Assembly: GCA_963804815.1 (NCBI GenBank)
Contig: CAWDRU010000002.1
Location: 4,934,780 to 4,998,779 of the forward strand
Reading direction: 5' to 3'
Length of the DNA stretch: 64,000 nt
Origin: Blastocatellia bacterium
GTDB taxonomy: Bacteria > Acidobacteriota > Blastocatellia > UBA7656
Shown: positions 17,597 to 54,263 of the stretch, piece by piece
Layout: every line of letters starts with the position of its first letter
Position numbering within the stretch: the first letter of the stretch is position 1
The notes under the pieces: model-generated
What the model saw: the letters and a program-made list of their open reading frames with translations, nothing else
Database searches by the model: none
What the model was told of the DNA's origin: nothing
Made by a program: the position numbers and the translations under genes

Positions 17597-19270
17597 ATGA
17601 TAAATCAGACGTTAAAACTGATGCCGAAGCTTTTATTTCTTTTGTTTCTGTTCTGCTGTCCTGTGGACGCGATGGCCGAGTCGTTTGAGACGATTGTCAG
17701 TAACGGCAGCCCTCAGAACAGAGTGGACATCGCCATTCTCGGCGATGGTTATACGGCCAGCCAGATGCAGCAATACAGGGCCGATGTTCAGAATTTTATT
17801 CAGGGCGTATTCGCGCAAGAGCCATACAGGGAATACTCGCGTTACTATAACGTTCACAGAATTGATGTAATCAGCAGTCAATCAGGAGCCGACCATCCGG
17901 AACGCAATCCCGCAGTTTTCGTCAATACCGCGTTTGATGCAACTTACAACTGCGGCAACATTCAGCGTCTCATCTGCGTGAATACTACTAAAGTCTTCAA
18001 CGTTATAAACAACACCCTCCCGGCTTCATTCTTTGACGTTGTGTTGATTATCGTCAACGACCCTGAATACGGAGGGTCGGGCGGCAGTGTGGCCGTCGCG
18101 TCAACTAATGGCGCGGTCGTAGAGCTTGTATTACACGAAGTGGGCCACAGCTTCGGACTCCTCGCCGACGAATACGCCGGAGGAGGTCCGAGTTGCAATG
18201 CCGGTATCGAGCCTTCCGAGCCTAATGCCACCAAAGAGACCGTGCGCGCCTTGATTAAATGGAATCAATGGATCGCGCTCACCACTCCCGTCCCGACAAC
18301 GACGAGTACGCCGGGCGTGCCGGGACTGTACGAGAGCGCCAAATACTGCGACTTTGGATTGTACAGACCAACGTTTGACTCCAAGATGCGGTCGCTTGAT
18401 CGCCCGTTCGAGCAGATAAACACCGAGCAGCATGTCAAGCGCGTATACAACCTTGTCTCGCCAATAGACTCCAGCCAGCCGCCCGGAAATAATCTGGTGA
18501 TTACAAAGGGACAGATACAGCCATTCAGCCTGACAACGCCAATACCGTTTACGCACACGCTTGGTGTGACATGGTTCGTTGACGGCCAGATGCAGGGTAC
18601 AGGGCTGACGTTCAATCTTGATTCCAGCGCGCTCAGTATCGGCTCTCATACGGTAGAAGGTCGGGTGAGCGACGCGACGCCTCTGGTTAGAAGTGATCCC
18701 CAGCAACTTTTATCCGAACAGCGAAGCTGGAATGTTACAGTCCAGTGTGCTCTTTCGCTTTCAAAGACCGGTCAGTTCTTCCCGATGAACGGTGGAGACG
18801 ACAGCGTAACCATATCGGCAGGGGCTGGCTGTGGCTGGACGGCTGTGAGCAATGACAACTGGATCATTATCACCTCAGCCAATAGCGGCACAACCAGCAA
18901 TGTCGTTACCTACACAGTGAGAGAGAACTTCACTGCAAGCGCGCGTACAGGTTCGCTTACAATCGCAGGACAGACCTTCATAGTGATTCAGAATGGCGTA
19001 TCGGGCGGGAGTTGCAGTTACTCGATCTCTCCCGCGTTCCAGTCTTTCACTAAGACCGGCGGGAGCGGCGCTGTGAGCGTATCGGCTGGTTCGGGTTGCG
19101 CATGGGGCGCTGTAAGCAACGTCAACTGGATAACGATTACTTCGGGCAATAACGGCATAGGGAATGGCACGGTGAATTACACAGTAGCGGCTAACCCCGG
19201 CACCAATGGCCGCGCAGGCAAGATAACGATTGCCGGAAAAACTTACTCGGTGAAACAAACGGGTAATTAG
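17597..19270 (+). CDS. secreted zinc metallopeptidase (M64 IgA-peptidase-like HEVGH) with two C-terminal Ig-like/BACON-like repeats
   Basis: VLHEVGHSFGLLADEY. Tandem about 75-aa repeats GCGWTAVSNDNWIIITSANSG...TYTV and GCAWGAVSNVNWITITSGNNG...NYTV. Confidence 0.5.
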   Translation: MINQTLKLMPKLLFLLFLFCCPVDAMAESFETIVSNGSPQNRVDIAILGDGYTASQMQQYRADVQNFIQGVFAQEPYREYSRYYNVHRIDVISSQSGADHPERNPAVFVNTAFDATYNCGNIQRLICVNTTKVFNVINNTLPASFFDVVLIIVNDPEYGGSGGSVAVASTNGAVVELVLHEVGHSFGLLADEYAGGGPSCNAGIEPSEPNATKETVRALIKWNQWIALTTPVPTTTSTPGVPGLYESAKYCDFGLYRPTFDSKMRSLDRPFEQINTEQHVKRVYNLVSPIDSSQPPGNNLVITKGQIQPFSLTTPIPFTHTLGVTWFVDGQMQGTGLTFNLDSSALSIGSHTVEGRVSDATPLVRSDPQQLLSEQRSWNVTVQCALSLSKTGQFFPMNGGDDSVTISAGAGCGWTAVSNDNWIIITSANSGTTSNVVTYTVRENFTASARTGSLTIAGQTFIVIQNGVSGGSCSYSISPAFQSFTKTGGSGAVSVSAGSGCAWGAVSNVNWITITSGNNGIGNGTVNYTVAANPGTNGRAGKITIAGKTYSVKQTGN

Positions 19271-19283
19271 CGAACGGATAAAG

Positions 19284-19328
19284 ATGCGACGGGTTCTCAG
19301 AAATTCAAACCCGTCGCATCTTTGTCAT
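19284..19328 (+). terminator. rho-independent terminator of the M64 peptidase gene
   Basis: gatgcgacgggtt ...11 nt... aacccgtcgcatc followed by TTTGTCATC. Confidence 0.6.
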
Positions 19329-19570
19329 CTATGGCTCACTCATTTACATCTCGCATCATTGCAGCAGGTCTTTCATCTACCTGCGCCAGAGCGAAGTCGA
19401 AGGATTAGGCGCTCGCATGGTTAGAGCGGGCCTATGAAGCGCAAAGCGATCTTCCGGTTTTCATCAAGGTAGAACCGACCTGGGACAACCTTCGCTCGGA
19501 CGCACGTTTTCAAGACCTCCTGCGTCGCATCGGTCTTCAATGATGATTTATATATTTTCTATTCCGTTTG

Positions 19571-19933
19571 TTAGCTGATCTTTTCACTCGAATCAGGCTT
19601 CTTCGACGAGCGAGGTTTGCGCTCGCTTAGACGAGTGCCGCCTACCTGAGCATATTGCGCCGAATTGGGACCAAAAACGGCCTTCATTCCGCTGCGTCCT
19701 CGCGTGTTATAACTCTCAACCAGTTTCATCTGATCGCTGGTATCGTCAACCAGTTTTGACAGATCGGTACGCATTTCATCGCGAGTTTGCTTCAGGTTGC
19801 GCAGTTTGGTTATAGAGCTTTTCAGGCTCTCAATCGTCACATCTCCCAAAGCAAATGTAGGGTTTTCACTCCAAACCTGAGCTAAACGCTCGGCATCAGC
19901 AATCACCGAATCCACCGTTTTATTTGAAGCCAT
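19571..19933 (-). CDS. hypothetical protein
   Basis: Start at MASNKT preceded by AGGAGG. No family recognised. Its upstream region carries palindromes (see regulatory feature). Confidence 0.4.
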   Translation of the reverse strand: MASNKTVDSVIADAERLAQVWSENPTFALGDVTIESLKSSITKLRNLKQTRDEMRTDLSKLVDDTSDQMKLVESYNTRGRSGMKAVFGPNSAQYAQVGGTRLSERKPRSSKKPDSSEKIS

Positions 19934-19967
19934 CTTTTTCCTCCTTGCATAAGTAAGCATTATCTCT

Positions 19968-19992
19968 TATTGAGAGATAATGATCTTTTGTT
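19968..19992. promoter_or_regulatory. operator-like palindrome upstream of 19571..19933(-): CATTATCTCT-N5-AGAGATAATG
   Basis: Perfect 10-bp arms. ATCTCT/AGAGAT half-sites recur at least five more times in the AT-rich stretch 19970-20215. Confidence 0.4.
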
Positions 19993-20351
19993 TATAGACG
20001 AGTATCTCTCGCTCAGAGAGCATCATCTTCTGTTTAGAGATTGTTATTTTTATTGAGAGAACGTCATCTATCGTTGACAGTAAATCATCTCTCGTTAAAT
20101 TATATTTTTTATTTTGCTAATATTTTTTTTGTCATCAGGCAGATTTATTATTATTAATTATATTTGTGCCCGCATTGCGATTAGCGAGCCAACTATATCT
20201 CTCATAGTTTTTGGTGTCAATAAAAACTGTGATTTTTAATACTAACAATTATTTCGCGTGCGCCACTGCGGTGAATCGCTACGGCGAGGACTCAACAGTT
20301 ATTCAGATTATAACGCCTGATATTCTTTGTAAAAATCATCATAAGTAATGT

Positions 20352-20566
20352 AACGTGAATTCGACATAAGAATCAGCCCTGAAAGGGCGAAATTCAATAG
20401 CACAGGGCATCGCCCTGTGTCGTACATCGTGAAATAAACCAAGTGATTTATTTCGCCCTTTCAGGGCTTGTGAGATGGTGGTGTTGCATACCGTGGGTTT
20501 CACCCACGGCTATTGAATTTCGCCCTTTCAGGGCTTTTACTTCGATTATTATGTCGAACTCGCGTT
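20352..20566 (+). mobile_element. MITE-like structured repeat, family A copy 1 (about 215 bp, internal about 24-bp deletion vs other copies)
   Basis: Terminal inverted repeats AACGTGAATTCGACATAAG ... ATTATGTCGAACTCGCGTT. Internal GCCCTGAAAGGGCGAAAT units in inverted pairs. Flanking AATGT direct duplication. Confidence 0.7.
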
Positions 20567-20767
20567 AATGTAGGCATTTAAAAATTCGAGATTCAAAATA
20601 AACACGACCCGAAGCGCCATTGCCTATTTGTTTTATTATGCAGTAAACGGTCTTTAGAATCAGATATTCACTTACACCCCATTACTGATTTCACACTTAT
20701 CCGGCCAGTTGCATCGAGACTAAAACTGTATGGTAACTGTCCCTATCTGGCGATCAAAATATTCCGG

Positions 20768-20905
20768 GCTGTAACAAAGTAACTGTAGGGGCAGGGCTTG
20801 TCCCTGCCCGGATCGCCGATAGGCGATGATCTGTCATGGCTTTCAGCCATTCGGGCAGGGACAAGCCCTGCCCCTACATTGATTGTCAACCGACTTTGTT
20901 ACAGC
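20768..20905. repeat. palindromic repeat family B copy 1 (BIME/REP-like), with 13-bp TIR GCTGTAACAAAGT and flanking 13-bp direct repeats CAAAATATTCCGG
   Basis: Inner arms TGTAGGGGCAGGGCTTGTCCCTGCCCGGATCGC / CCATTCGGGCAGGGACAAGCCCTGCCCCTACA are inverted relative to each other and each is itself a hairpin. Direct repeats at 20755-20767 and 20911-20923. Confidence 0.6.
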
Positions 20906-20975
20906 CCTGTCAAAATATTCCGGCAATTAGCGTTACGGATAGAGCGCCAGTTGGAATAATTAAAGCGTTAGGGGA

Positions 20976-22727
20976 TTATCGTTTCAAAGCGAAGCTTGCG
21001 TCGCGATAAACCTCTTTACCTTCTAACAAAGTGAGCAGCACTTTCGCATTGTGGATTTCGTGCGGCGCAATCTCAAACAGATTACGGTCCACGACTATCA
21101 GGTCGGCGGCTTTGCCCGTTTCAATCGAACCTGTCTCGGCCTCTTCAAAGTTCAGATACGCGCCGTTGATCGTATAGCCCGCAAGCATCGTTTCGAGATC
21201 AACTCGTTCTTCGGCAATCCACGCCTCTCCCGGCCCTTTATCAAGCCCTCTGCGCGTTATCGCTACCTGAATCGCATCGAGCGGGTTCATCGAAGTGACT
21301 GACCAGTCGCTGCCGCAAGCTATGACTGCGCCTGTTGCAGAAAGGCTGTGAATCGGGTAGAGCCATCGCGAGCGCTCAGGCCCAAGCACGGGCAGCGTAA
21401 GTTCCGTTATGTAAGTATCGGCATAAGCCCAGAGCGGCTGGAAGTTCGCAATGACGCCGAGTCGCCGAAAGCGCGGCACATCCTGCGGGTTGAAAAGTTC
21501 TATATGGGCTATCGTGTGCCGGGAGTCTCGGCTGCCGTTCTTTGAGCGGGCGAACTCGAAAGCGTCGAGCGCGTTTCTGATGGCCCTGTCGCCGATGGCA
21601 TGAACGTGGACTTGAAACCCTTCGCGGTCGAGCGCCGCGACCAGAGGATTGAATACATCAGGCTCGACGTTCGCCTTGCCGCGATCACCCTCAGTTCCGA
21701 CATAAGGCTCAAGCAACGCTGCTGTGCGGGCTTCGATCACGCCGTCCGCAAAGATCTTTACGGCAGTGGCGCGCAACCTGCGGCCCTGATACCGCTTTCT
21801 CATCTCTGCGAGGCGCGACACCTCTGCCGCGCCTTTCGACGTATCGACCGACAGCGCCGCGACGACTCGCGCAGTCAACTCGCCGCGACGGTCAAGTTCG
21901 GCGTAAGTTTTAAGATACGTTTCGCTCACACTTGCGTCCTGAAACGAAGTGATGCCGAAGCGATTTGCCATCTCAAGCCCGCGTCGAAGCCCTTTTGTGT
22001 AATCCTCAGTCGAATACTGAGGCAGGTGACGCTCGACAAGCGCCATCGCATCTTCGCGAAGCGTGCCCGTAGGCTCATTCGTCGCGGGGTCGCGCTCGAT
22101 GCGGCCCGGTTTCGGATCAGGCGTGTTTTTCGTTATTCCGGCAATTTCGAGAGCGCGCGAATTCGCCCACGCTGAATGGCCGTCGGCGGCATACAAAAAG
22201 ACAGGCCGGTCAGGAATCGTTTTGTCGAGACTGGATTTGTGCGGATTGGCATTTGGAAAAAGCGGAAGCTGCCAGCCCGACCCGCGAATCCACTTTTTCT
22301 GCGGGTTCTGCTCCGCGTACCGCCGAACAGCGTCAAGTATCTGCTGTTCGGAAGTAAGCTCGCTCAACTGGCATTCATCCATCTCTATGCCGCCCGACAC
22401 GACATGGACATGCGAGTCATGAAAGCTCGGCAACAGCATCCTGCCTCGTAAATCGACGACGACAGTCTGCGGGCCAATCCATTTTTGAGCCTTGCTGTCG
22501 GGGCCGACATAAACTATGCGGCCCTGGCTTACGGCTACGGTTTCAGCCCAACTGCGCGCTGCGTCGAGCGTGTAGACAGCGCCGTTGCGGAATATCAGGT
22601 CAGCAGTCTTTGTTGCGGGTTTCTGAGAGATGGCAAAAGCATTGCCTGACGAGAAGAGCACAAACAGGAGCAGGCTTGAAAGAGTTCGGCGCACGAGCAA
22701 CCTCCGAAAAGTGAAAGTGAGAAGCAC
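20976..22727 (-). CDS. secreted amidohydrolase-family metal-dependent hydrolase (amidohydrolase_3 / YtcJ-like)
   Basis: HDSHVHV near the N-terminus and HVHAIGDRA...HIELF later, typical of the amidohydrolase 3 family. Signal peptide. Confidence 0.7.
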   Translation of the reverse strand: MLLTFTFRRLLVRRTLSSLLLFVLFSSGNAFAISQKPATKTADLIFRNGAVYTLDAARSWAETVAVSQGRIVYVGPDSKAQKWIGPQTVVVDLRGRMLLPSFHDSHVHVVSGGIEMDECQLSELTSEQQILDAVRRYAEQNPQKKWIRGSGWQLPLFPNANPHKSSLDKTIPDRPVFLYAADGHSAWANSRALEIAGITKNTPDPKPGRIERDPATNEPTGTLREDAMALVERHLPQYSTEDYTKGLRRGLEMANRFGITSFQDASVSETYLKTYAELDRRGELTARVVAALSVDTSKGAAEVSRLAEMRKRYQGRRLRATAVKIFADGVIEARTAALLEPYVGTEGDRGKANVEPDVFNPLVAALDREGFQVHVHAIGDRAIRNALDAFEFARSKNGSRDSRHTIAHIELFNPQDVPRFRRLGVIANFQPLWAYADTYITELTLPVLGPERSRWLYPIHSLSATGAVIACGSDWSVTSMNPLDAIQVAITRRGLDKGPGEAWIAEERVDLETMLAGYTINGAYLNFEEAETGSIETGKAADLIVVDRNLFEIAPHEIHNAKVLLTLLEGKEVYRDASFALKR

Positions 22728-50134: not shown

Positions 50135-50457
50135 ACTCACGGATGGCTTTGCATCAAAAGTTTAAAGATCAGCCCGCGTTTGGTTCAAGGGTGATTTCAA
50201 AACCAACTTGACCCTGTCGAACCTTGATTCAATATTTGACCGCTTGCGACAGGCGACAAGGCACTCATCACGCTTGTAGTTGTAGAGGTGAAACATCTTT
50301 TCAAACAATCCACCTCCTGCGCCAGCGGTTGGCTATATACCAATTCTGGCAATCACCTCACGCATAAAAGCCTGATTTCTGATAGACATGTCGGGGAAAA
50401 GTGCTATCATCTGCTATCAGATTTACCCAGCGAAGGATTTGAACAGAAAAGGAAGCT

Positions 50458-50592
50458 ATGAGCAATCTGTTAGTCAGAGACGTGCCGGAACAAATTCGCT
50501 CCTGGATAGAGCAGGTGCGAAGCGAGCACAGGATGACTCAACAGGAGTTCGTTCTTAAGTTCGGGAATGCCGTAGAGCCTAAAGCAGCGTAG
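50458..50592 (+). CDS. 44-aa ribbon-helix-helix (Arc/MetJ, antitoxin-like) protein
   Basis: Below the ORF-track cut-off. AAAAGGAAG RBS then ATG. MSNLLVRDVPEQIRSWIEQVRSEHRMTQQEFVL has the beta-strand plus two helices pattern of RHH antitoxins. Confidence 0.4.
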   Translation: MSNLLVRDVPEQIRSWIEQVRSEHRMTQQEFVLKFGNAVEPKAA

Positions 50593-50633
50593 TCAGAGTT
50601 TATTTGCAGATTGATGGCTGATCGAAAATAACT

Positions 50634-51392
50634 ATGCCTCGTCAAAGCTGGTCTAGAGATGAACTACTTGTAACCTTTAATCTATATTGTCGCACTCCTT
50701 TCGGTCGGTTGCACAGAGGCAATCCTGAAATCATTTCACTCGCACGCAAGATTGGTCGAACACCTAGCGCAGTGGCAATGAAGCTTGTCAACTTCGCGAG
50801 CTTTGACCCTGTTCATCAAGCGCGATCTGTTCGAGGGTTGAGCAATGCTAGCCAAGCCGACCATCACATTTGGGATGAATTTAATGCTAACCCAGAGCAA
50901 TTGGCATTTGAAAGTCAAAAAGCATTCGATGAAATTGTAGAGCGCATTACGGAACCTGAGAAGATAGTTTTTCCACCTTCTGGCCCAACCGAAACAACTC
51001 GGTCAGTCCGGGTACGCTTGGTTCAACGTTTTTTCCGTGAATCTGTTCTTACAAGTTACGACTATCGTTGTACTATTTGTGACCTCAGTTTAGTGGAATT
51101 ACTGACAGCCAGCCACATCATTCCTTGGAGTCGAAATGTGGAGCGACGTGCTGATCCTCGAAATGGATTGGCCCTTTGTGCAATCCATGATCGTGCTTTT
51201 GATCGGGGAATAATAACGCTCGATGATTCATTTCGGGTACTGCTTTCCAAGACAGCAAAAGTAATAACCTCAAGCCGACTGCATATGGTTGCGCTGCTGG
51301 AGATTGAACGTAAAATAATCTCGCTGCCGAAAAGATTCTCCCCTGATCCTGTAGCTTTGGCTTATCATAGGACAGAGATTTTCAGGCAGTAG
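50634..51392 (+). CDS. HNH endonuclease (HNH_2 / restriction-endonuclease-like)
   Basis: CTICD...ASHIIPW...NGLALCAIHDRAFDRG. Local GC visibly lower than surroundings. Confidence 0.7.
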   Translation: MPRQSWSRDELLVTFNLYCRTPFGRLHRGNPEIISLARKIGRTPSAVAMKLVNFASFDPVHQARSVRGLSNASQADHHIWDEFNANPEQLAFESQKAFDEIVERITEPEKIVFPPSGPTETTRSVRVRLVQRFFRESVLTSYDYRCTICDLSLVELLTASHIIPWSRNVERRADPRNGLALCAIHDRAFDRGIITLDDSFRVLLSKTAKVITSSRLHMVALLEIERKIISLPKRFSPDPVALAYHRTEIFRQ

Positions 51393-51416
51393 AATTCATG
51401 ATAGAGGACTGCGCCT

Positions 51417-51677
51417 ATGTCGAGACCGATCACAATCATCTTGGAAGCCGCCGATGTTCTACAGATACTTGATGCGCTGGAAAACAGAGCGGAATGTTAC
51501 GAAAAGACAGCGGTTTTGATGAATGGTGAATATAAAACAGAGATGGATAGTGAATATGCGTTAGATCAGTTTTTTATTCCAGAAGAATGTAGAGACGCAA
51601 CTGAAGCGGAAGACATAGGCAGGCATTTCAGAGATATAATTACCTCTTTGGAAAAGCAACTTGGCGAATCCAGCTAG
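51417..51677 (+). CDS. hypothetical acidic small protein
   Basis: ORF in the low-GC islet. No family recognised. Confidence 0.3.
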   Translation: MSRPITIILEAADVLQILDALENRAECYEKTAVLMNGEYKTEMDSEYALDQFFIPEECRDATEAEDIGRHFRDIITSLEKQLGESS

Positions 51678-51713
51678 ATTCTGGGAAAATGTCGTAAGTA
51701 AATCACTTTCACC

Positions 51714-51968
51714 TTGAAATCATCTACAACTTTCATCATCAGATCAACCCAACAGGGCAGTAATACGAATACCGCATGGGCGCGGCAAAACCCAAGACAA
51801 TTGATCTCGCGTGAAAGTGCGCCACTCTTGGGGTTCACCGATGAATTTCGCATCGTTGTTTCTGATACTCAGGTATATATGAATTCTGGCAGAACAAAAG
51901 ACTTTCAAATGTTGACCGTGACAGGCGCAACCTCGAATCTCTTGAACGCGAAGGATGGAAAGTTATGA
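51714..51968 (+). CDS. hypothetical small protein
   Basis: ORF in the low-GC islet. No family recognised. Confidence 0.25.
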   Translation: MKSSTTFIIRSTQQGSNTNTAWARQNPRQLISRESAPLLGFTDEFRIVVSDTQVYMNSGRTKDFQMLTVTGATSNLLNAKDGKL

Positions 51969-52104
51969 TTGTATGGGAGTGCTTGATAAAAGATAAGCGG
52001 TTTGACTACATTCAGACATCCGTTAAAGAATTTCTTATTAAAGGCGTGCAGCCTTTTGATGCAAACACGACTTTAGGCGCAAAGCCATTACAGGTAAAGA
52101 AAAA

Positions 52105-53217
52105 ATGAATTACTCAAGATGGCTGCTGGTCGCTGCGCTCTTCTGGCATTTTTCAGCAAGCGAGGCTGTTGCGCAGGCGAAACCGGAGGTCCGCGTCGGC
52201 ATGGTGACACGGGATTTCGTAGACGAAGGAAGAAAGAACTGGCAGGCGACAGGCCCGCGCCCGCTGCGAACCGCTATCTGGTATCCGGCAGCCGTCACGA
52301 CCGAAGAAGAAACGATCTTTTCCGGCCCGCCTGAAACGCAGGTTTTTGCTGCCGTCACGGTTGCGCCATCTGCTGAGGTTTCGCCTGCCTCAAAAAAATA
52401 TCCGCTTATTCTCCTGTCTCACGGCACAGGAGGCTCGGCTGTGATGATGATGTGGCTGGGCCATTATCTTGCATCTCGCGGCTACATAGTTGCGGCCCTG
52501 AATCATCACGGCAACACGGCGGCGGAAAAACAACCCGCCGCTCAAGGCTTTCTGCTCGTCTGGGAACGCCCCAAGGATTTGACCATCGTGCTCGATAAGC
52601 TGCTTGCCGACCCGGTCTTTGGAAACCGGATTGATAGAAACCGAATTGGTGCGGCGGGCTTTTCGTTGGGCGGCTACACGGTTATCTCGATTGCCGGGGG
52701 CCGGTTCAGCCTGAAAGAGTTTGAAAGCTTTTGCAATTCTCCGCAGCGAGACTTCACCTGCGAGCCTCAGCCTGAATTCCCCGCAGCGCGAGCGAAATTC
52801 GAGGAACTGATAAAGACAGACCCGGTCGTGCAGGCGTCCGTGCTTCAGGCAGGCGATTCCTATATTGATAAAAGAATCAAATCTGTTTTCGCCATCGCTC
52901 CTGCGCTCGGCAGCGGGTTTACGAAAGCCAGTCTGAGCGCGATAAAAATACCCGTTCGCATAGTCCTCGGTCAGGCAGATGTAGTGACTCCGTTGGCTAC
53001 GAACGCGCAGCGGTACGCGAACCTGATCAAGGGAGCGAAGCTGACGGTTCTTTCGGGAGAAGTAGGGCACTACACATTTCTTGCAACCTGCACGCCCAAC
53101 GGAAAAAAGGTTTTGCCAATCTGCCGCGACGGCGCGGGGGTTGACCGCGCCCTTGTACACGAACAGGTAAGCCGGATGGCTTTCGAGTTCTTCGAGAAAA
53201 CACTGGCGAAGAGATGA
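52105..53217 (+). CDS. secreted alpha/beta hydrolase (dienelactone hydrolase / PAF-acetylhydrolase-like)
   Basis: GAAGFSLGG nucleophile elbow. LILLSHGTGGS. Signal peptide. Confidence 0.6.
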   Translation: MNYSRWLLVAALFWHFSASEAVAQAKPEVRVGMVTRDFVDEGRKNWQATGPRPLRTAIWYPAAVTTEEETIFSGPPETQVFAAVTVAPSAEVSPASKKYPLILLSHGTGGSAVMMMWLGHYLASRGYIVAALNHHGNTAAEKQPAAQGFLLVWERPKDLTIVLDKLLADPVFGNRIDRNRIGAAGFSLGGYTVISIAGGRFSLKEFESFCNSPQRDFTCEPQPEFPAARAKFEELIKTDPVVQASVLQAGDSYIDKRIKSVFAIAPALGSGFTKASLSAIKIPVRIVLGQADVVTPLATNAQRYANLIKGAKLTVLSGEVGHYTFLATCTPNGKKVLPICRDGAGVDRALVHEQVSRMAFEFFEKTLAKR

Positions 53218-53252
53218 GCCGATTTCAATGCGCGCTCTGAACCAAAGGAGGG

Positions 53253-54263
53253 TTGATTATGATTTGGCTTCGCGTGCTGGCCTGCCTGCTTTTAAGTTCA
53301 TCAAACGCTCAGAAGCCGCCGGTAGGGATCATTGATTTTTACGGGCTTCACAACCTCACTGAAAGTCAGGCGCGGCAGGCTCTCAAATTCAAAGATGGCG
53401 ATTTTAACTCCGCAGCTTCAGAAGAAGCGGTAAAAGATCTGCGTTTACTGGCGGGCGTAGAACAGGTTTATATCAATATCACCTGTTGCGATGATAAGGG
53501 GAAATCGATACTGTATATCGGCATCGAGGAAAGAGGGTTTCCGGCATTACGATTCCTCCCGGCTCCTAAAAAGAATCTCCTGCTGTCACCCGATATTGTC
53601 GAAGCCGGTGAGGCTCTCGAAAAAGCAATACGGCAGGGAGTTTTAAGCAATGATGTAACGGAAGATGAATCTCAGGGCCATGCGCTTTTGCACTATCCAC
53701 CGGCCCGCGCAATTCAGGAGCAGTTTATCAAATTCGCCGCCCGCGACCTGAAACATTTGCGCGATGTTTTGCACAATTCAAATAACTCACTGCATCGCGC
53801 GCTGGCAGCAGAGATTATCGCTTATACAAAAAACAAACAATCGGTAGTAAACGATCTTGTCGCCGCAATCAAAGACCCTGACGAAGAGGTGCGTAACAAT
53901 GCGATGCGGGCGCTCGGCGTAATGGGGCAGGCGGAAAAATTAAAGATCACGATTCCCTGGACTCCGTTTATAGAGATGCTCAATTCGTCAGTTTGGACAG
54001 ACCGTAACAAATCATCTTTTACGCTCATGACTCTCACTCAAAAACGTAATCCTGTATTGCTCGCCGAGCTTCGCAATCGAGCGTTTGAATCGCTTGTCGA
54101 GATTGCTCGATGGAAAAACAGAGGTCATGCGGCGCAGGGTTTCTTTATTCTTGGACGCATCGCAGGTATGGGCGAGCAGGAACTTTTTGAAGCCTGGGAG
54201 AGAAATGATCGGGAAGCGATAATCAACGCCGCAATGAAGCGCGCAGGAAAGAGAGCGCAATGA
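53253..54263 (+). CDS. secreted HEAT-repeat protein
   Basis: Signal peptide. AAIKDPDEEVRNNAMRALGVMG is a HEAT/PBS-lyase-like repeat. Confidence 0.45.
   Translation: MIMIWLRVLACLLLSSSNAQKPPVGIIDFYGLHNLTESQARQALKFKDGDFNSAASEEAVKDLRLLAGVEQVYINITCCDDKGKSILYIGIEERGFPALRFLPAPKKNLLLSPDIVEAGEALEKAIRQGVLSNDVTEDESQGHALLHYPPARAIQEQFIKFAARDLKHLRDVLHNSNNSLHRALAAEIIAYTKNKQSVVNDLVAAIKDPDEEVRNNAMRALGVMGQAEKLKITIPWTPFIEMLNSSVWTDRNKSSFTLMTLTQKRNPVLLAELRNRAFESLVEIARWKNRGHAAQGFFILGRIAGMGEQELFEAWERNDREAIINAAMKRAGKRAQ

What the first reader, a model, noticed from the sequence alone, without database searches (positions are those of the whole stretch)
50135..52104. Low-GC islet after polA: RHH mini-protein, HNH_2 endonuclease and two orphan ORFs, a possible defence or addiction module
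GC drops visibly across this 2-kb stretch. It contains (1) an unlisted 44-aa ORF MSNLLVRDVPEQIRSWIEQVRSEHRMTQQEFVL with a good RBS and ribbon-helix-helix antitoxin-like character, (2) a 252-aa HNH_2 endonuclease with the full C..C / HIIPW / NGLALC..HD.FD signature, and (3) two small acidic hypothetical ORFs. No methyltransferase or cognate toxin is visible. An RHH regulator paired with an HNH nuclease could be a minimal restriction-like or abortive-infection unit acquired horizontally.
Basis: partly seen in the sequence, partly recalled or inferred. Interest (0 to 1): 0.55.

Follow-up and report, generated by a model that had tools for sequence, protein, structure and literature searches.

The report
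Decayed restriction cassette with surviving nuclease
The low-GC islet after polA is the wreck of a horizontally acquired cytosine-methylation restriction cassette: the "RHH mini-protein" is the stump of its methylase, and only an HNH nuclease and a small acidic partner gene remain intact.

Summary
The GC dip is real. The islet has GC 0.444 against a window mean of 0.535, the lowest 2-kb stretch in the window. It is missing from the closest relatives, where polA runs straight into the HEAT-repeat gene.

It is not an RHH+HNH two-gene unit. A 90%-identical HNH in another Blastocatellia MAG (L081) lies in the order C5 methylase, HNH, 94-aa ORF, vsr.
- **44-aa ORF:** the first ~33 residues of that methylase fused in frame to its last 11.
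- **84-aa ORF:** a dead methylase 3' fragment.
- **47-aa ORF:** the tail of a dead vsr.
- **Intact genes:** the HNH (homeodomain-like HTH plus a VcaM4I/TagI-type HNH_2 domain) and the 86-aa acidic ORF. That ORF follows the HNH in about half of 87 related loci.

Neighbouring methylases in those loci are nearly always N-terminal stubs, including at the N. gonorrhoeae NgoAXIII locus. HNH and its partner still stay under purifying selection (omega about 0.08). The nuclease therefore persists without a cis methylase, either through an unlinked methylase or by some methylase-independent means. This copy may instead be attenuated by a unique G226R change.

The islet itself is an ordinary R-M remnant. 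The HNH/partner pair is uncharacterised and moderately interesting.

The parts
50143..50161 (.). Left arm of the inverted repeat that brackets the islet, 9 nt after the polA stop
   Evidence: It pairs with 52053-52065 (13/13) and 52070-52088 (16/19). No shuffle of 2000 gave a perfect inverted repeat of 13 nt or more between the first and last 60 nt of the islet.
50383..50410 (+). Promoter-like site (TAGACA, 16 nt, TG-TATCAT) about 48 nt upstream of the methylase stump ORF
   Evidence: It is the best consensus match in the region, 10 of 12 with an extended -10. Its downstream end falls inside the block conserved with the region upstream of the L081 methylase (window 50402-50529 ~ L081 8794-8925). 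This is a consensus match only.
50458..50592 (+). 44-aa stump of a C5 DNA methyltransferase: the N-terminal DNA-binding-like extension (residues 1-33) fused in frame to the methylase's last 11 residues (KFGNAVEPKAA) and its native stop codon
   Evidence: Residues 1-33 are 74% identical to residues 1-34 of the 368-aa L081 methylase. Residues 34-44 are 91% identical to its residues 358-368. About 322 codons carrying all catalytic motifs are missing.
50634..51392 (+). Intact 252-aa HTH-HNH_2 nuclease gene
51417..51677 (+). Intact 86-aa acidic (pI 4.2) helical-hairpin protein, the conserved partner of the HNH
   Evidence: 70% identical to the ORF after the L081 HNH. A homologue lies next to the HNH in 47 of 79 loci that have enough downstream sequence, with a median gap of 14 nt. 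It matches 329 50%-identity clusters in 1.84 billion proteins. No Pfam, PADLOC or PHROG match passed threshold. The model has pLDDT 85 with only generic helical matches.
51720..51890 (+). Dead 3' fragment of a C5 methyltransferase (motifs IX-X), lying inside the 84-aa ORF 51714-51968
   Evidence: It aligns to L081 methylase residues 303-360 at 45% identity, with the conserved motifs degraded. PF00145 E=0.0012 is below the cut-off. NCBIfam Dcm E=4e-5. PADLOC DrmMII/MTase_II down to 3e-8.
51881..52108 (+). Dead 3' fragment of vsr (very-short-patch-repair endonuclease). The 47-aa ORF 51965-52108 is its tail.
   Evidence: It aligns to Vsr residues about 96-149 of three relatives at 40-68% identity, E down to 1e-18. 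The Vsr HMM gives 6e-18. The N-terminal catalytic half is absent, and PF03852 gives no hit.
52053..52088 (.). Right arm(s) of the inverted repeat, 17 nt before the hydrolase start codon

Best explanation
The islet is a horizontally acquired, inverted-repeat-bounded remnant of a 5-methylcytosine restriction-modification / very-short-patch-repair cassette.

The intact layout, reconstructed from relatives, is: C5 methyltransferase with an N-terminal DNA-binding extension, then HTH-HNH nuclease, then a small acidic protein, then (in some loci) an EcoRII-type endonuclease, then Vsr.

**State in this genome (shown)**
- A roughly 0.97-kb in-frame deletion has reduced the methylase to the 44-aa ORF.
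- A second methylase 3' end and the vsr 3' end survive only as dead fragments.
- Only the nuclease gene and its 86-aa partner are intact.

**How the nuclease is built (predicted)**
- The nuclease is a two-domain enzyme: a homeodomain-like helical DNA-binding domain and a beta-beta-alpha-metal (HNH_2) cleavage domain.
- Its acidic partner lies 24 nt downstream.

**How it works (inferred)**
- The pair is transcribed from the old methylase promoter.
- The pair is the selected unit of this cassette family. It keeps working as a restriction-type nuclease without its own methylase.
- Host DNA would be protected in trans by an unlinked methylase of the same specificity, or the small partner restrains the nuclease.
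- In this particular copy the nuclease may already be attenuated by G226R.
For: **Anatomy**
- L081 carries a 368-aa methylase, a 90%-identical HNH, a 94-aa ORF and a frameshifted vsr.
- The window's 44-aa ORF equals methylase residues 1-34 plus 358-368, in frame.
- The methylase C-terminal and Vsr C-terminal fragments are mapped.

**Foreign origin**
- In L001, polA is followed 20 bp later by the HEAT gene. L002 carries a different 840-bp insert at that spot.
- Cassette dS is 0.2-0.27, against polA dS of 1.41 for the same pair of genomes.
- The cassette is a low-GC island in five hosts.
- Terminal inverted repeats bracket the islet; 0 of 2000 shuffles matched them.

**Nuclease intact**
- All invariant residues are retained, and omega is 0.17.
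- The fold is described.

**The pair is the persistent unit**
- Across 87 loci, orf86 is the commonest neighbour (51 loci), then Vsr (44), the methylase (19-24) and EcoRII (10-12).
- Methylase hits are almost all N-terminal stubs that end flush with the pair.
- L091 and L093 share one truncation by descent. Even so, HNH omega is 0.08, orf86 0.07, EcoRII 0.12 and Vsr 0.13, at dS of 0.5-0.8.
- An EcoRII-type enzyme kept under selection without a cis methylase argues for methylation supplied in trans.
- A solitary Dcm is known to protect against loss of EcoRII R-M (review PMC3874152).

**The same architecture in a cultured species**
- The N. gonorrhoeae pheS-pheT locus carries V.NgoAXIII, a 133-aa methylase stub ending at motif IV, a small ORF and a 249-aa HNH homologue.
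- The literature describes that methylase as a non-active remnant (bioRxiv 10.1101/630434).
Against: - No activity data exist for any member of this HNH family.
- The rest of the 7.9-Mb source genome could not be searched for a second C5 methylase. None lies in the 64-kb window.
- The sample of loci was selected through HNH similarity, so intact HNH genes are over-represented.
- orf86 is missing next to the HNH in 32 of 79 loci, so it is not an obligatory partner.
- orf86 omega in the window/L081 pair is 0.59.
- G226R hits a position where 27 of 28 relatives have Gly. It could mean this copy is already dead.
- The methylase 3' fragment downstream of orf86 cannot be derived from the L081 layout by deletion alone. 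The history is therefore more complex than one cassette plus deletions.
Confidence: 0.65

Rival explanations
1. The islet is pure wreckage. The HNH ORF is open but enzymatically dead, inactivated by a missense change before the methylase was deleted (the usual order of R-M decay). orf86 is drifting, and nothing in the islet functions.
For: - G226R is the only departure from the 85% family consensus.
- orf86 omega is 0.59 against L081.
- Three of the five cassette genes are demonstrably dead here.
- The omega of 0.17 averages over both lineages since the split, so it cannot detect recent relaxation of selection.
Against: - There is no frameshift or stop codon in 252 + 86 codons, while the neighbouring genes are shredded.
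- All 60 invariant residues are kept.
- In other lineages the pair stays under strong purifying selection long after methylase loss.
Confidence: 0.15
2. HNH plus orf86 is a self-contained, methylase-independent module. Either the acidic 86-aa protein is an immunity/antitoxin-like inhibitor of the basic nuclease (toxin-immunity or abortive-infection logic), or the nuclease cuts only modified foreign DNA, like its closest structural relatives. On this reading it has invaded, or outlived, 5mC R-M cassettes.
For: - The HNH domain is closest to the modification-dependent enzymes VcaM4I, TagI and McrA.
- It matches the NCBIfam PT-DNA restriction endonuclease C-terminal region (3e-18).
- The partner is acidic (median pI 4.45) and the nuclease basic (median pI 9.2), with a median gap of 14 nt.
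- Methylase stubs end at or near motif IV, flush with the pair, in both orientations and in two methylase subfamilies, including in Neisseria.
- The HNH occurs with neither methylase nor orf86 in near-complete genome contigs of 5.0 and 6.3 Mb (L082, L084).
Against: - Intact, tightly linked methylase-HNH pairs exist in typical R-M arrangements and involve different methylase families (L081, L133, L092).
- Co-maintenance with EcoRII and Vsr implies that 5mC is present in those hosts. That makes a 5mC-dependent nuclease unlikely.
- orf86 is absent from 32 of 79 loci, and its fold gives no link to known immunity proteins.
- The N-terminal domain is an HTH, not a PUA/SRA/EVE reader.
- There are no conserved termini and no recombinase.
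Confidence: 0.2
3. One reading: the 44-aa RHH protein is a working antitoxin/repressor and the HNH is its toxin, forming a minimal addiction or abortive-infection pair.
For: - The stump ORF is open, with a good ribosome-binding site and a promoter-like site.
- Three loci (window, L086, L087) have independently different deletions that each keep just this N-terminal domain.
- Methylases are known to repress their own promoters by binding to the promoter region; EcoRII and SsoII are cited in PMC3874152.
Against: - The ORF is a deletion product of a methylase, not a gene family of its own.
- The RHH fold is unconfirmed.
- Most HNH loci have no such domain upstream, and another methylase subfamily carries a different N-terminal domain.
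- The deletion replaces the end of the predicted second helix.
Confidence: 0.08

Closest known systems
Type II R-M systems with a C5 methyltransferase and linked vsr (Dcm-Vsr of E. coli; EcoRII; NmeDI of N. meningitidis)
   Same: - The reconstructed parent cassette has a PF00145 methylase, a nuclease and a Vsr gene in one tight cluster.
- Several relatives also carry a full EcoRII-N/EcoRII-C endonuclease.
- It is a low-GC mobile island, as is typical of R-M cassettes.
   Different: - The methylase and vsr are dead here.
- The nuclease is an HTH-HNH_2 protein, not a PD-(D/E)XK enzyme.
- An extra conserved 86-aa acidic gene has no counterpart in those systems.
- Across loci it is the methylase, not the nuclease, that is usually lost.
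N. gonorrhoeae NgoAXIII locus (V.NgoAXIII + truncated methylase, between pheS and pheT)
   Same: - It has a Vsr, a C5-methylase stub cut at motif IV, and a 249-aa homologue of this HNH (37% identity over 98% of the length) in a known insertion hot spot.
- The methylase has been published as a non-active remnant.
   Different: - The gene order is Vsr, stub, small ORF, HNH.
- The small ORF is not an orf86 homologue.
- Vsr is intact and active there according to the literature.
- In the passages of the papers searched, the HNH gene was not mentioned as part of the system.
Modification-dependent HNH endonucleases VcaM4I (EVE-HNH, PDB 6YEX) and TagI (SRA-HNH, PDB 6GHS)
   Different: The N-terminal domain here is an all-helical homeodomain-like HTH, not a PUA-superfamily modified-base reader. 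Those enzymes are not linked to methylases or Vsr.
Type II HNH_2 restriction enzymes (HphI, BbrI, AlwI; group 6 of the His-Me finger classification, PMC5714182)
   Same: They belong to the same Pfam family and pair with methyltransferases.
   Different: No sequences of those enzymes were compared here, and their recognition domains are unknown.
HNH DNase / immunity protein pairs (colicin E9-Im9 type)
   Same: A basic HNH nuclease is followed within a few nucleotides by a small (about 85 aa) acidic helical protein.
   Different: - The HNH subfamily is different.
- orf86 is a two-helix hairpin with no detectable similarity to immunity proteins.
- There are no translocation or secretion domains, and orf86 is dispensable in many loci.

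Membership tests
HNH_2 endonuclease (PF13391) | Profile match above the gathering score | tested here: met
   46.9 bits against a cut-off of 21, E=2.5e-12.
HNH_2 endonuclease (PF13391) | beta-beta-alpha-metal core with the catalytic His/Asn and Cys ligands conserved | tested here: met
   C146, C149, H161, N177, C182, H185 and D186 are invariant columns and are present in the window protein. The fold superposes on the VcaM4I and TagI HNH domains.
Complete type II R-M system | Intact cognate methyltransferase next to the nuclease | tested here: not met
   Only a 44-aa stump and a degraded 3' fragment remain. There is no other C5 methylase in the 64-kb window.
Complete type II R-M system | Sequence-specific cleavage blocked by the cognate methylation | not testable with these tools
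   This needs biochemistry.
C5 DNA methyltransferase (PF00145) | Motifs I-VIII, including the AdoMet-binding FxGxG and the catalytic PCQ | tested here: not met
   The stump lacks residues 35-357 of the L081 enzyme. The downstream fragment covers only motifs IX-X, with PF00145 at 18.7 bits against a cut-off of 22.
Vsr endonuclease (PF03852) | N-terminal catalytic half matched by the Pfam model | tested here: not met
   Only residues about 96-149 survive. There is no PF03852 hit.
PUA-superfamily-HNH modification-dependent restriction enzymes | N-terminal SRA/EVE/YTH-type modified-base reader domain | tested here: not met
Ribbon-helix-helix antitoxin / type II TA | RHH fold recognised by a profile | tested here: inconclusive
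   Only sub-threshold hits were found: DUF7726 at 0.031 and VapB at 0.067. Pfam and the PDB profile search gave nothing for the domain family. The sequence pattern looks RHH-like from memory only.
Ribbon-helix-helix antitoxin / type II TA | Free-standing antitoxin gene paired with a cognate toxin family | tested here: not met
   The ORF is the two ends of a methylase gene joined by deletion.
PADLOC-listed defence component | Match to a PADLOC protein model | tested here: met
   PDLC04132 'HNH' at E=3.8e-90, covering residues 3-251. Which system rule uses this model could not be checked. orf86 and the stump have no PADLOC hit.
Transposon / MITE-like element | Terminal inverted repeats, target-site duplication, transposase or multiple copies | tested here: inconclusive
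   13/19-nt inverted repeats lie at both ends. No target-site duplication, no transposase and no further copy were found in the window or in 170 loci.

The most novel reading that the evidence does not exclude
The HTH-HNH nuclease and its 86-aa acidic partner form a previously undescribed, methylase-independent two-gene module. It would be a nuclease plus inhibitor, or a nuclease with a new kind of target discrimination. It would colonise Dcm/EcoRII/Vsr cassettes and outlive or actively displace their methylase, which would explain methylase stubs cut at motif IV from Acidobacteriota to Neisseria.
Probability: 0.15. Interest if true: 0.7.

Novelty: new variant of a known kind. Interest (0 to 1): 0.42.

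Why it matters
For this genome the answer is mundane. The islet is a decaying, foreign R-M cassette, and the 'RHH mini-protein' should be annotated as a methyltransferase remnant.

The comparative pattern is less mundane. The textbook order of R-M decay is nuclease first, with the methylase surviving as an orphan. Here the reverse is seen repeatedly:
- A widespread HNH_2 nuclease (more than 5000 homologues) and an unannotated small acidic protein (about 330 sequence clusters) stay under purifying selection.
- Meanwhile the adjacent methylase is reduced to a stub.
- This includes the much-studied gonococcal NgoAXIII locus, where the passages I searched did not mention the HNH gene.

Working out how the host tolerates this nuclease would clarify how restriction genes persist and spread without their own methylase. 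The candidates are trans-methylation, an inhibitor, or unusual specificity.

Tried and rejected
- **RHH confirmation.** Pfam, NCBIfam, PADLOC and PHROGs scans of the 44-aa ORF, Pfam on four full N-terminal domains, and a PDB profile search gave nothing significant. A weak XRE-type HTH resemblance also appeared (4i6t, E=1.4).
- **Type IV (5mC-dependent) reading.** I considered this seriously because of the VcaM4I/TagI similarity. I downgraded it because EcoRII and Vsr are co-maintained with the HNH and because intact methylase-HNH pairs exist.
- **Homing-like insertion into methylase motif IV.** Breakpoints cluster at residues about 134-170, but they are not identical (31 to 169). No conserved module termini or flanking inverted repeats were found in other loci.
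- **A third methylase 3'-end trace upstream (50331-50353).** It is not significant against L081 (63 of 300 shuffles) and only marginal against the downstream fragment (4 of 300).
- **orf86 versus intact methylase as mutually exclusive.** The numbers are too small; I estimated that the trend is not significant.
- **R.NmeDI as a characterised homologue.** Rejected. It is 351 aa, and the paper does not mention HNH.
- **Phage and plasmid collections.** These gave only distant hits, at most 42% identity.
Full report
**1. The observation**

GC drops from about 0.55 to 0.43-0.47 between the polA stop codon (50134) and the hydrolase start codon (52105). The islet (GC 0.444) is the lowest-GC 1970-bp window of the whole 64 kb (mean 0.535, sd 0.026). 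It ties with one other stretch near 19 kb. Third-position GC is 0.37 for the HNH gene and 0.41 for the 86-aa ORF, against 0.64 for polA.

The 252-aa ORF matches PF13391 HNH_2 above threshold.

**2. Synteny**

A polA-anchored scan of GTDB species genomes returned 25 Blastocatellia relatives.
- In the closest one (L001, polA 93% identical at protein level), polA is followed 20 bp later by the HEAT-repeat gene that lies at 53253 in the window.
- L002 carries an unrelated 840-bp insert at the same spot.
- No relative has the HNH, the small ORFs or the alpha/beta hydrolase near polA.

Relative to L001 the whole of 50135-53228 is extra. However, only 50143-52088 is low in GC, and that part is bracketed by an inverted repeat (13 nt perfect, 19 nt at 84%). 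No shuffle of 2000 matched it. The islet therefore looks like a separate unit inserted between polA and the hydrolase.

**3. What the pieces are**

The best HNH homologue (P0001, 90% identical) lies in another Blastocatellia MAG. There it belongs to a cassette with this order:
- a 368-aa C5 methyltransferase;
- the HNH;
- a 94-aa ORF;
- a frameshifted vsr.

The window's pieces map onto that cassette as follows.
- **The 44-aa 'RHH' ORF.** Its residues 1-33 match methylase residues 1-34 (74% identity). Its last 11 residues (KFGNAVEPKAA) match the methylase C-terminus, and it uses the same stop codon and the same spacer before the HNH. It is therefore the product of an in-frame deletion of about 322 codons that removed every catalytic motif.
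- **The 84-aa ORF.** It contains a degraded copy of methylase motifs IX-X.
- **The 47-aa ORF.** It is the tail of a vsr gene whose first ~95 codons are gone.
- **The 86-aa ORF.** It is 70% identical to the ORF after the L081 HNH.

The islet therefore holds five cassette elements, of which three are dead. The cassette is much more similar between the two genomes (dS 0.2-0.27) than polA is (dS 1.41). It is also a low-GC island in every host examined. Both results point to horizontal transfer.

**4. The nuclease**

The family is large: 5398 hits, typically 250-260 aa, with 61% mean column identity across phyla. The window protein keeps all 60 invariant residues. It departs from the 85% consensus at a single site, G226R.

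The AlphaFold model (pLDDT 86) shows two domains:

PADLOC has a full-length model for exactly this family (PDLC04132, E=3.8e-90), and a type II REase HNH model also matches. HNH_2 also includes methylase-partnered type II enzymes such as HphI (PMC5714182). Family membership alone therefore does not settle the mode of action.

**5. The partner**

orf86 is acidic (pI 4.2; family median 4.45). It follows the basic HNH (family median pI 9.2) after a median gap of 14 nt. It has 17 invariant residues and matches 329 50%-identity clusters. No library describes it. It is predicted to be a two-helix hairpin with no informative structural neighbours.

**6. Comparative anatomy of 87 loci**

The only recurrent neighbours of the HNH are orf86 (51 loci), Vsr (44), the C5 methylase (19-24) and EcoRII-type endonuclease (10-12).
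- Methylase hits are almost always N-terminal stubs that end flush with the HNH start or the orf86 end.
- Stub end positions range from residue about 31 to about 169 and cluster at motif IV (PCQ).
- They occur in both orientations and in two methylase subfamilies with different N-terminal domains.
- Intact methylases adjacent to the HNH were seen only in L081, L092 and L133.
- EcoRII and Vsr are also found in all states of decay.

The same layout occurs in N. gonorrhoeae between pheS and pheT: V.NgoAXIII, a 133-aa methylase stub, a small ORF and a 249-aa HNH homologue. The literature treats that methylase as a non-active remnant.

**7. Is the HNH functional without its methylase?**

L091 and L093 share the same truncation junction by descent. 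They have diverged to dS 0.5-0.8, yet omega values remain low:

| Gene | omega |
|---|---|
| HNH | 0.08 |
| orf86 | 0.07 |
| EcoRII | 0.12 |
| Vsr | 0.13 |
| Methylase stub | 0.21 |

The nuclease and its partner are therefore maintained by selection long after the cis methylase was lost. EcoRII-type enzymes kill unmethylated hosts, and Vsr is useful only where 5mC exists. The simplest reading is that an unlinked methylase methylates these genomes, which makes the cassette's own methylase redundant. Protection of this kind is documented for Dcm against EcoRII (PMC3874152). This argues against a 5mC-dependent type IV role for the HNH. It does not exclude a methylase-independent mechanism, such as inhibition by orf86 or another target specificity.

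**8. This copy**

The window retains a promoter-like site upstream of the stump, the stump ORF, the HNH and orf86. I could not determine whether the HNH is active here. There is no second C5 methylase within 64 kb, the rest of the genome is out of reach, and G226R is a candidate attenuating change.

**9. Verdict**

The reading of 'RHH regulator + HNH minimal module, no methylase' is not right. The islet is a decayed 5mC R-M/Vsr cassette, and the mini-ORF is the methylase's stump. The islet itself is ordinary. The recurrent survival of the HNH/orf86 pair beside gutted methylases is an uncharacterised and moderately interesting pattern.

**Unresolved**
- The origin of the methylase 3' fragment downstream of orf86, which L081 lacks.
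- The meaning of the terminal inverted repeats.
- The function of orf86.

Noticed in passing
window 50135-53228; L001 4900-4945; L002 11236-12075: The polA/HEAT-gene junction is a variable insertion spot in this Blastocatellia lineage. It is empty in L001, holds an unrelated ~270-aa ORF in L002, and holds the islet plus an alpha/beta hydrolase in the window.
   Followed up: partly
window 52105-53217: The 370-aa secreted alpha/beta hydrolase (PAF-AH/PETase-like Pfam hits) is also absent next to polA in all 25 relatives. It has normal GC (0.56) and lies outside the inverted repeats, so it looks like an older or separate acquisition.
   Followed up: partly
window ~18850-21000: This is a second low-GC stretch (0.444-0.452), as extreme as the islet. 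It covers the 3' part of a 557-aa ORF of undetermined function, a 129-aa ORF on the minus strand (19571-19960) and about 1 kb without long ORFs.
   Followed up: no
L171 (N. gonorrhoeae NZ_CP119142.1 370359-379099), 2956-4747: The gonococcal NgoAXIII locus carries a full-length 249-aa homologue of this HNH directly after the truncated methylase. The passages of the papers I searched describe only the Vsr and the methylase remnant. The record is a chromosome filed as a plasmid in PLSDB.
   Followed up: partly
L097, L107, L123, L135, L138 (methylase stubs): A second methylase subfamily next to the HNH carries a different N-terminal domain of about 110 aa (MESRVIELT...TDIPTD...PRW). It has only a faint B3-domain hit (E=0.21) and is retained in all stubs.
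   Followed up: no
L082-L085, L101: In some relatives the slot after the HNH holds an unrelated basic 88-aa ORF instead of orf86. In L083 and L082 a 192-aa ORF that looks like a PD-(D/E)XK nuclease precedes vsr instead of EcoRII.
   Followed up: no
window 50334-50351 and 51874-51891: An 18-nt direct repeat (16/18 identical) lies upstream of the stump promoter and inside the downstream methylase fragment. It is marginally non-random (4 of 300 shuffles) and may be a third trace of a methylase 3' end.
   Followed up: partly
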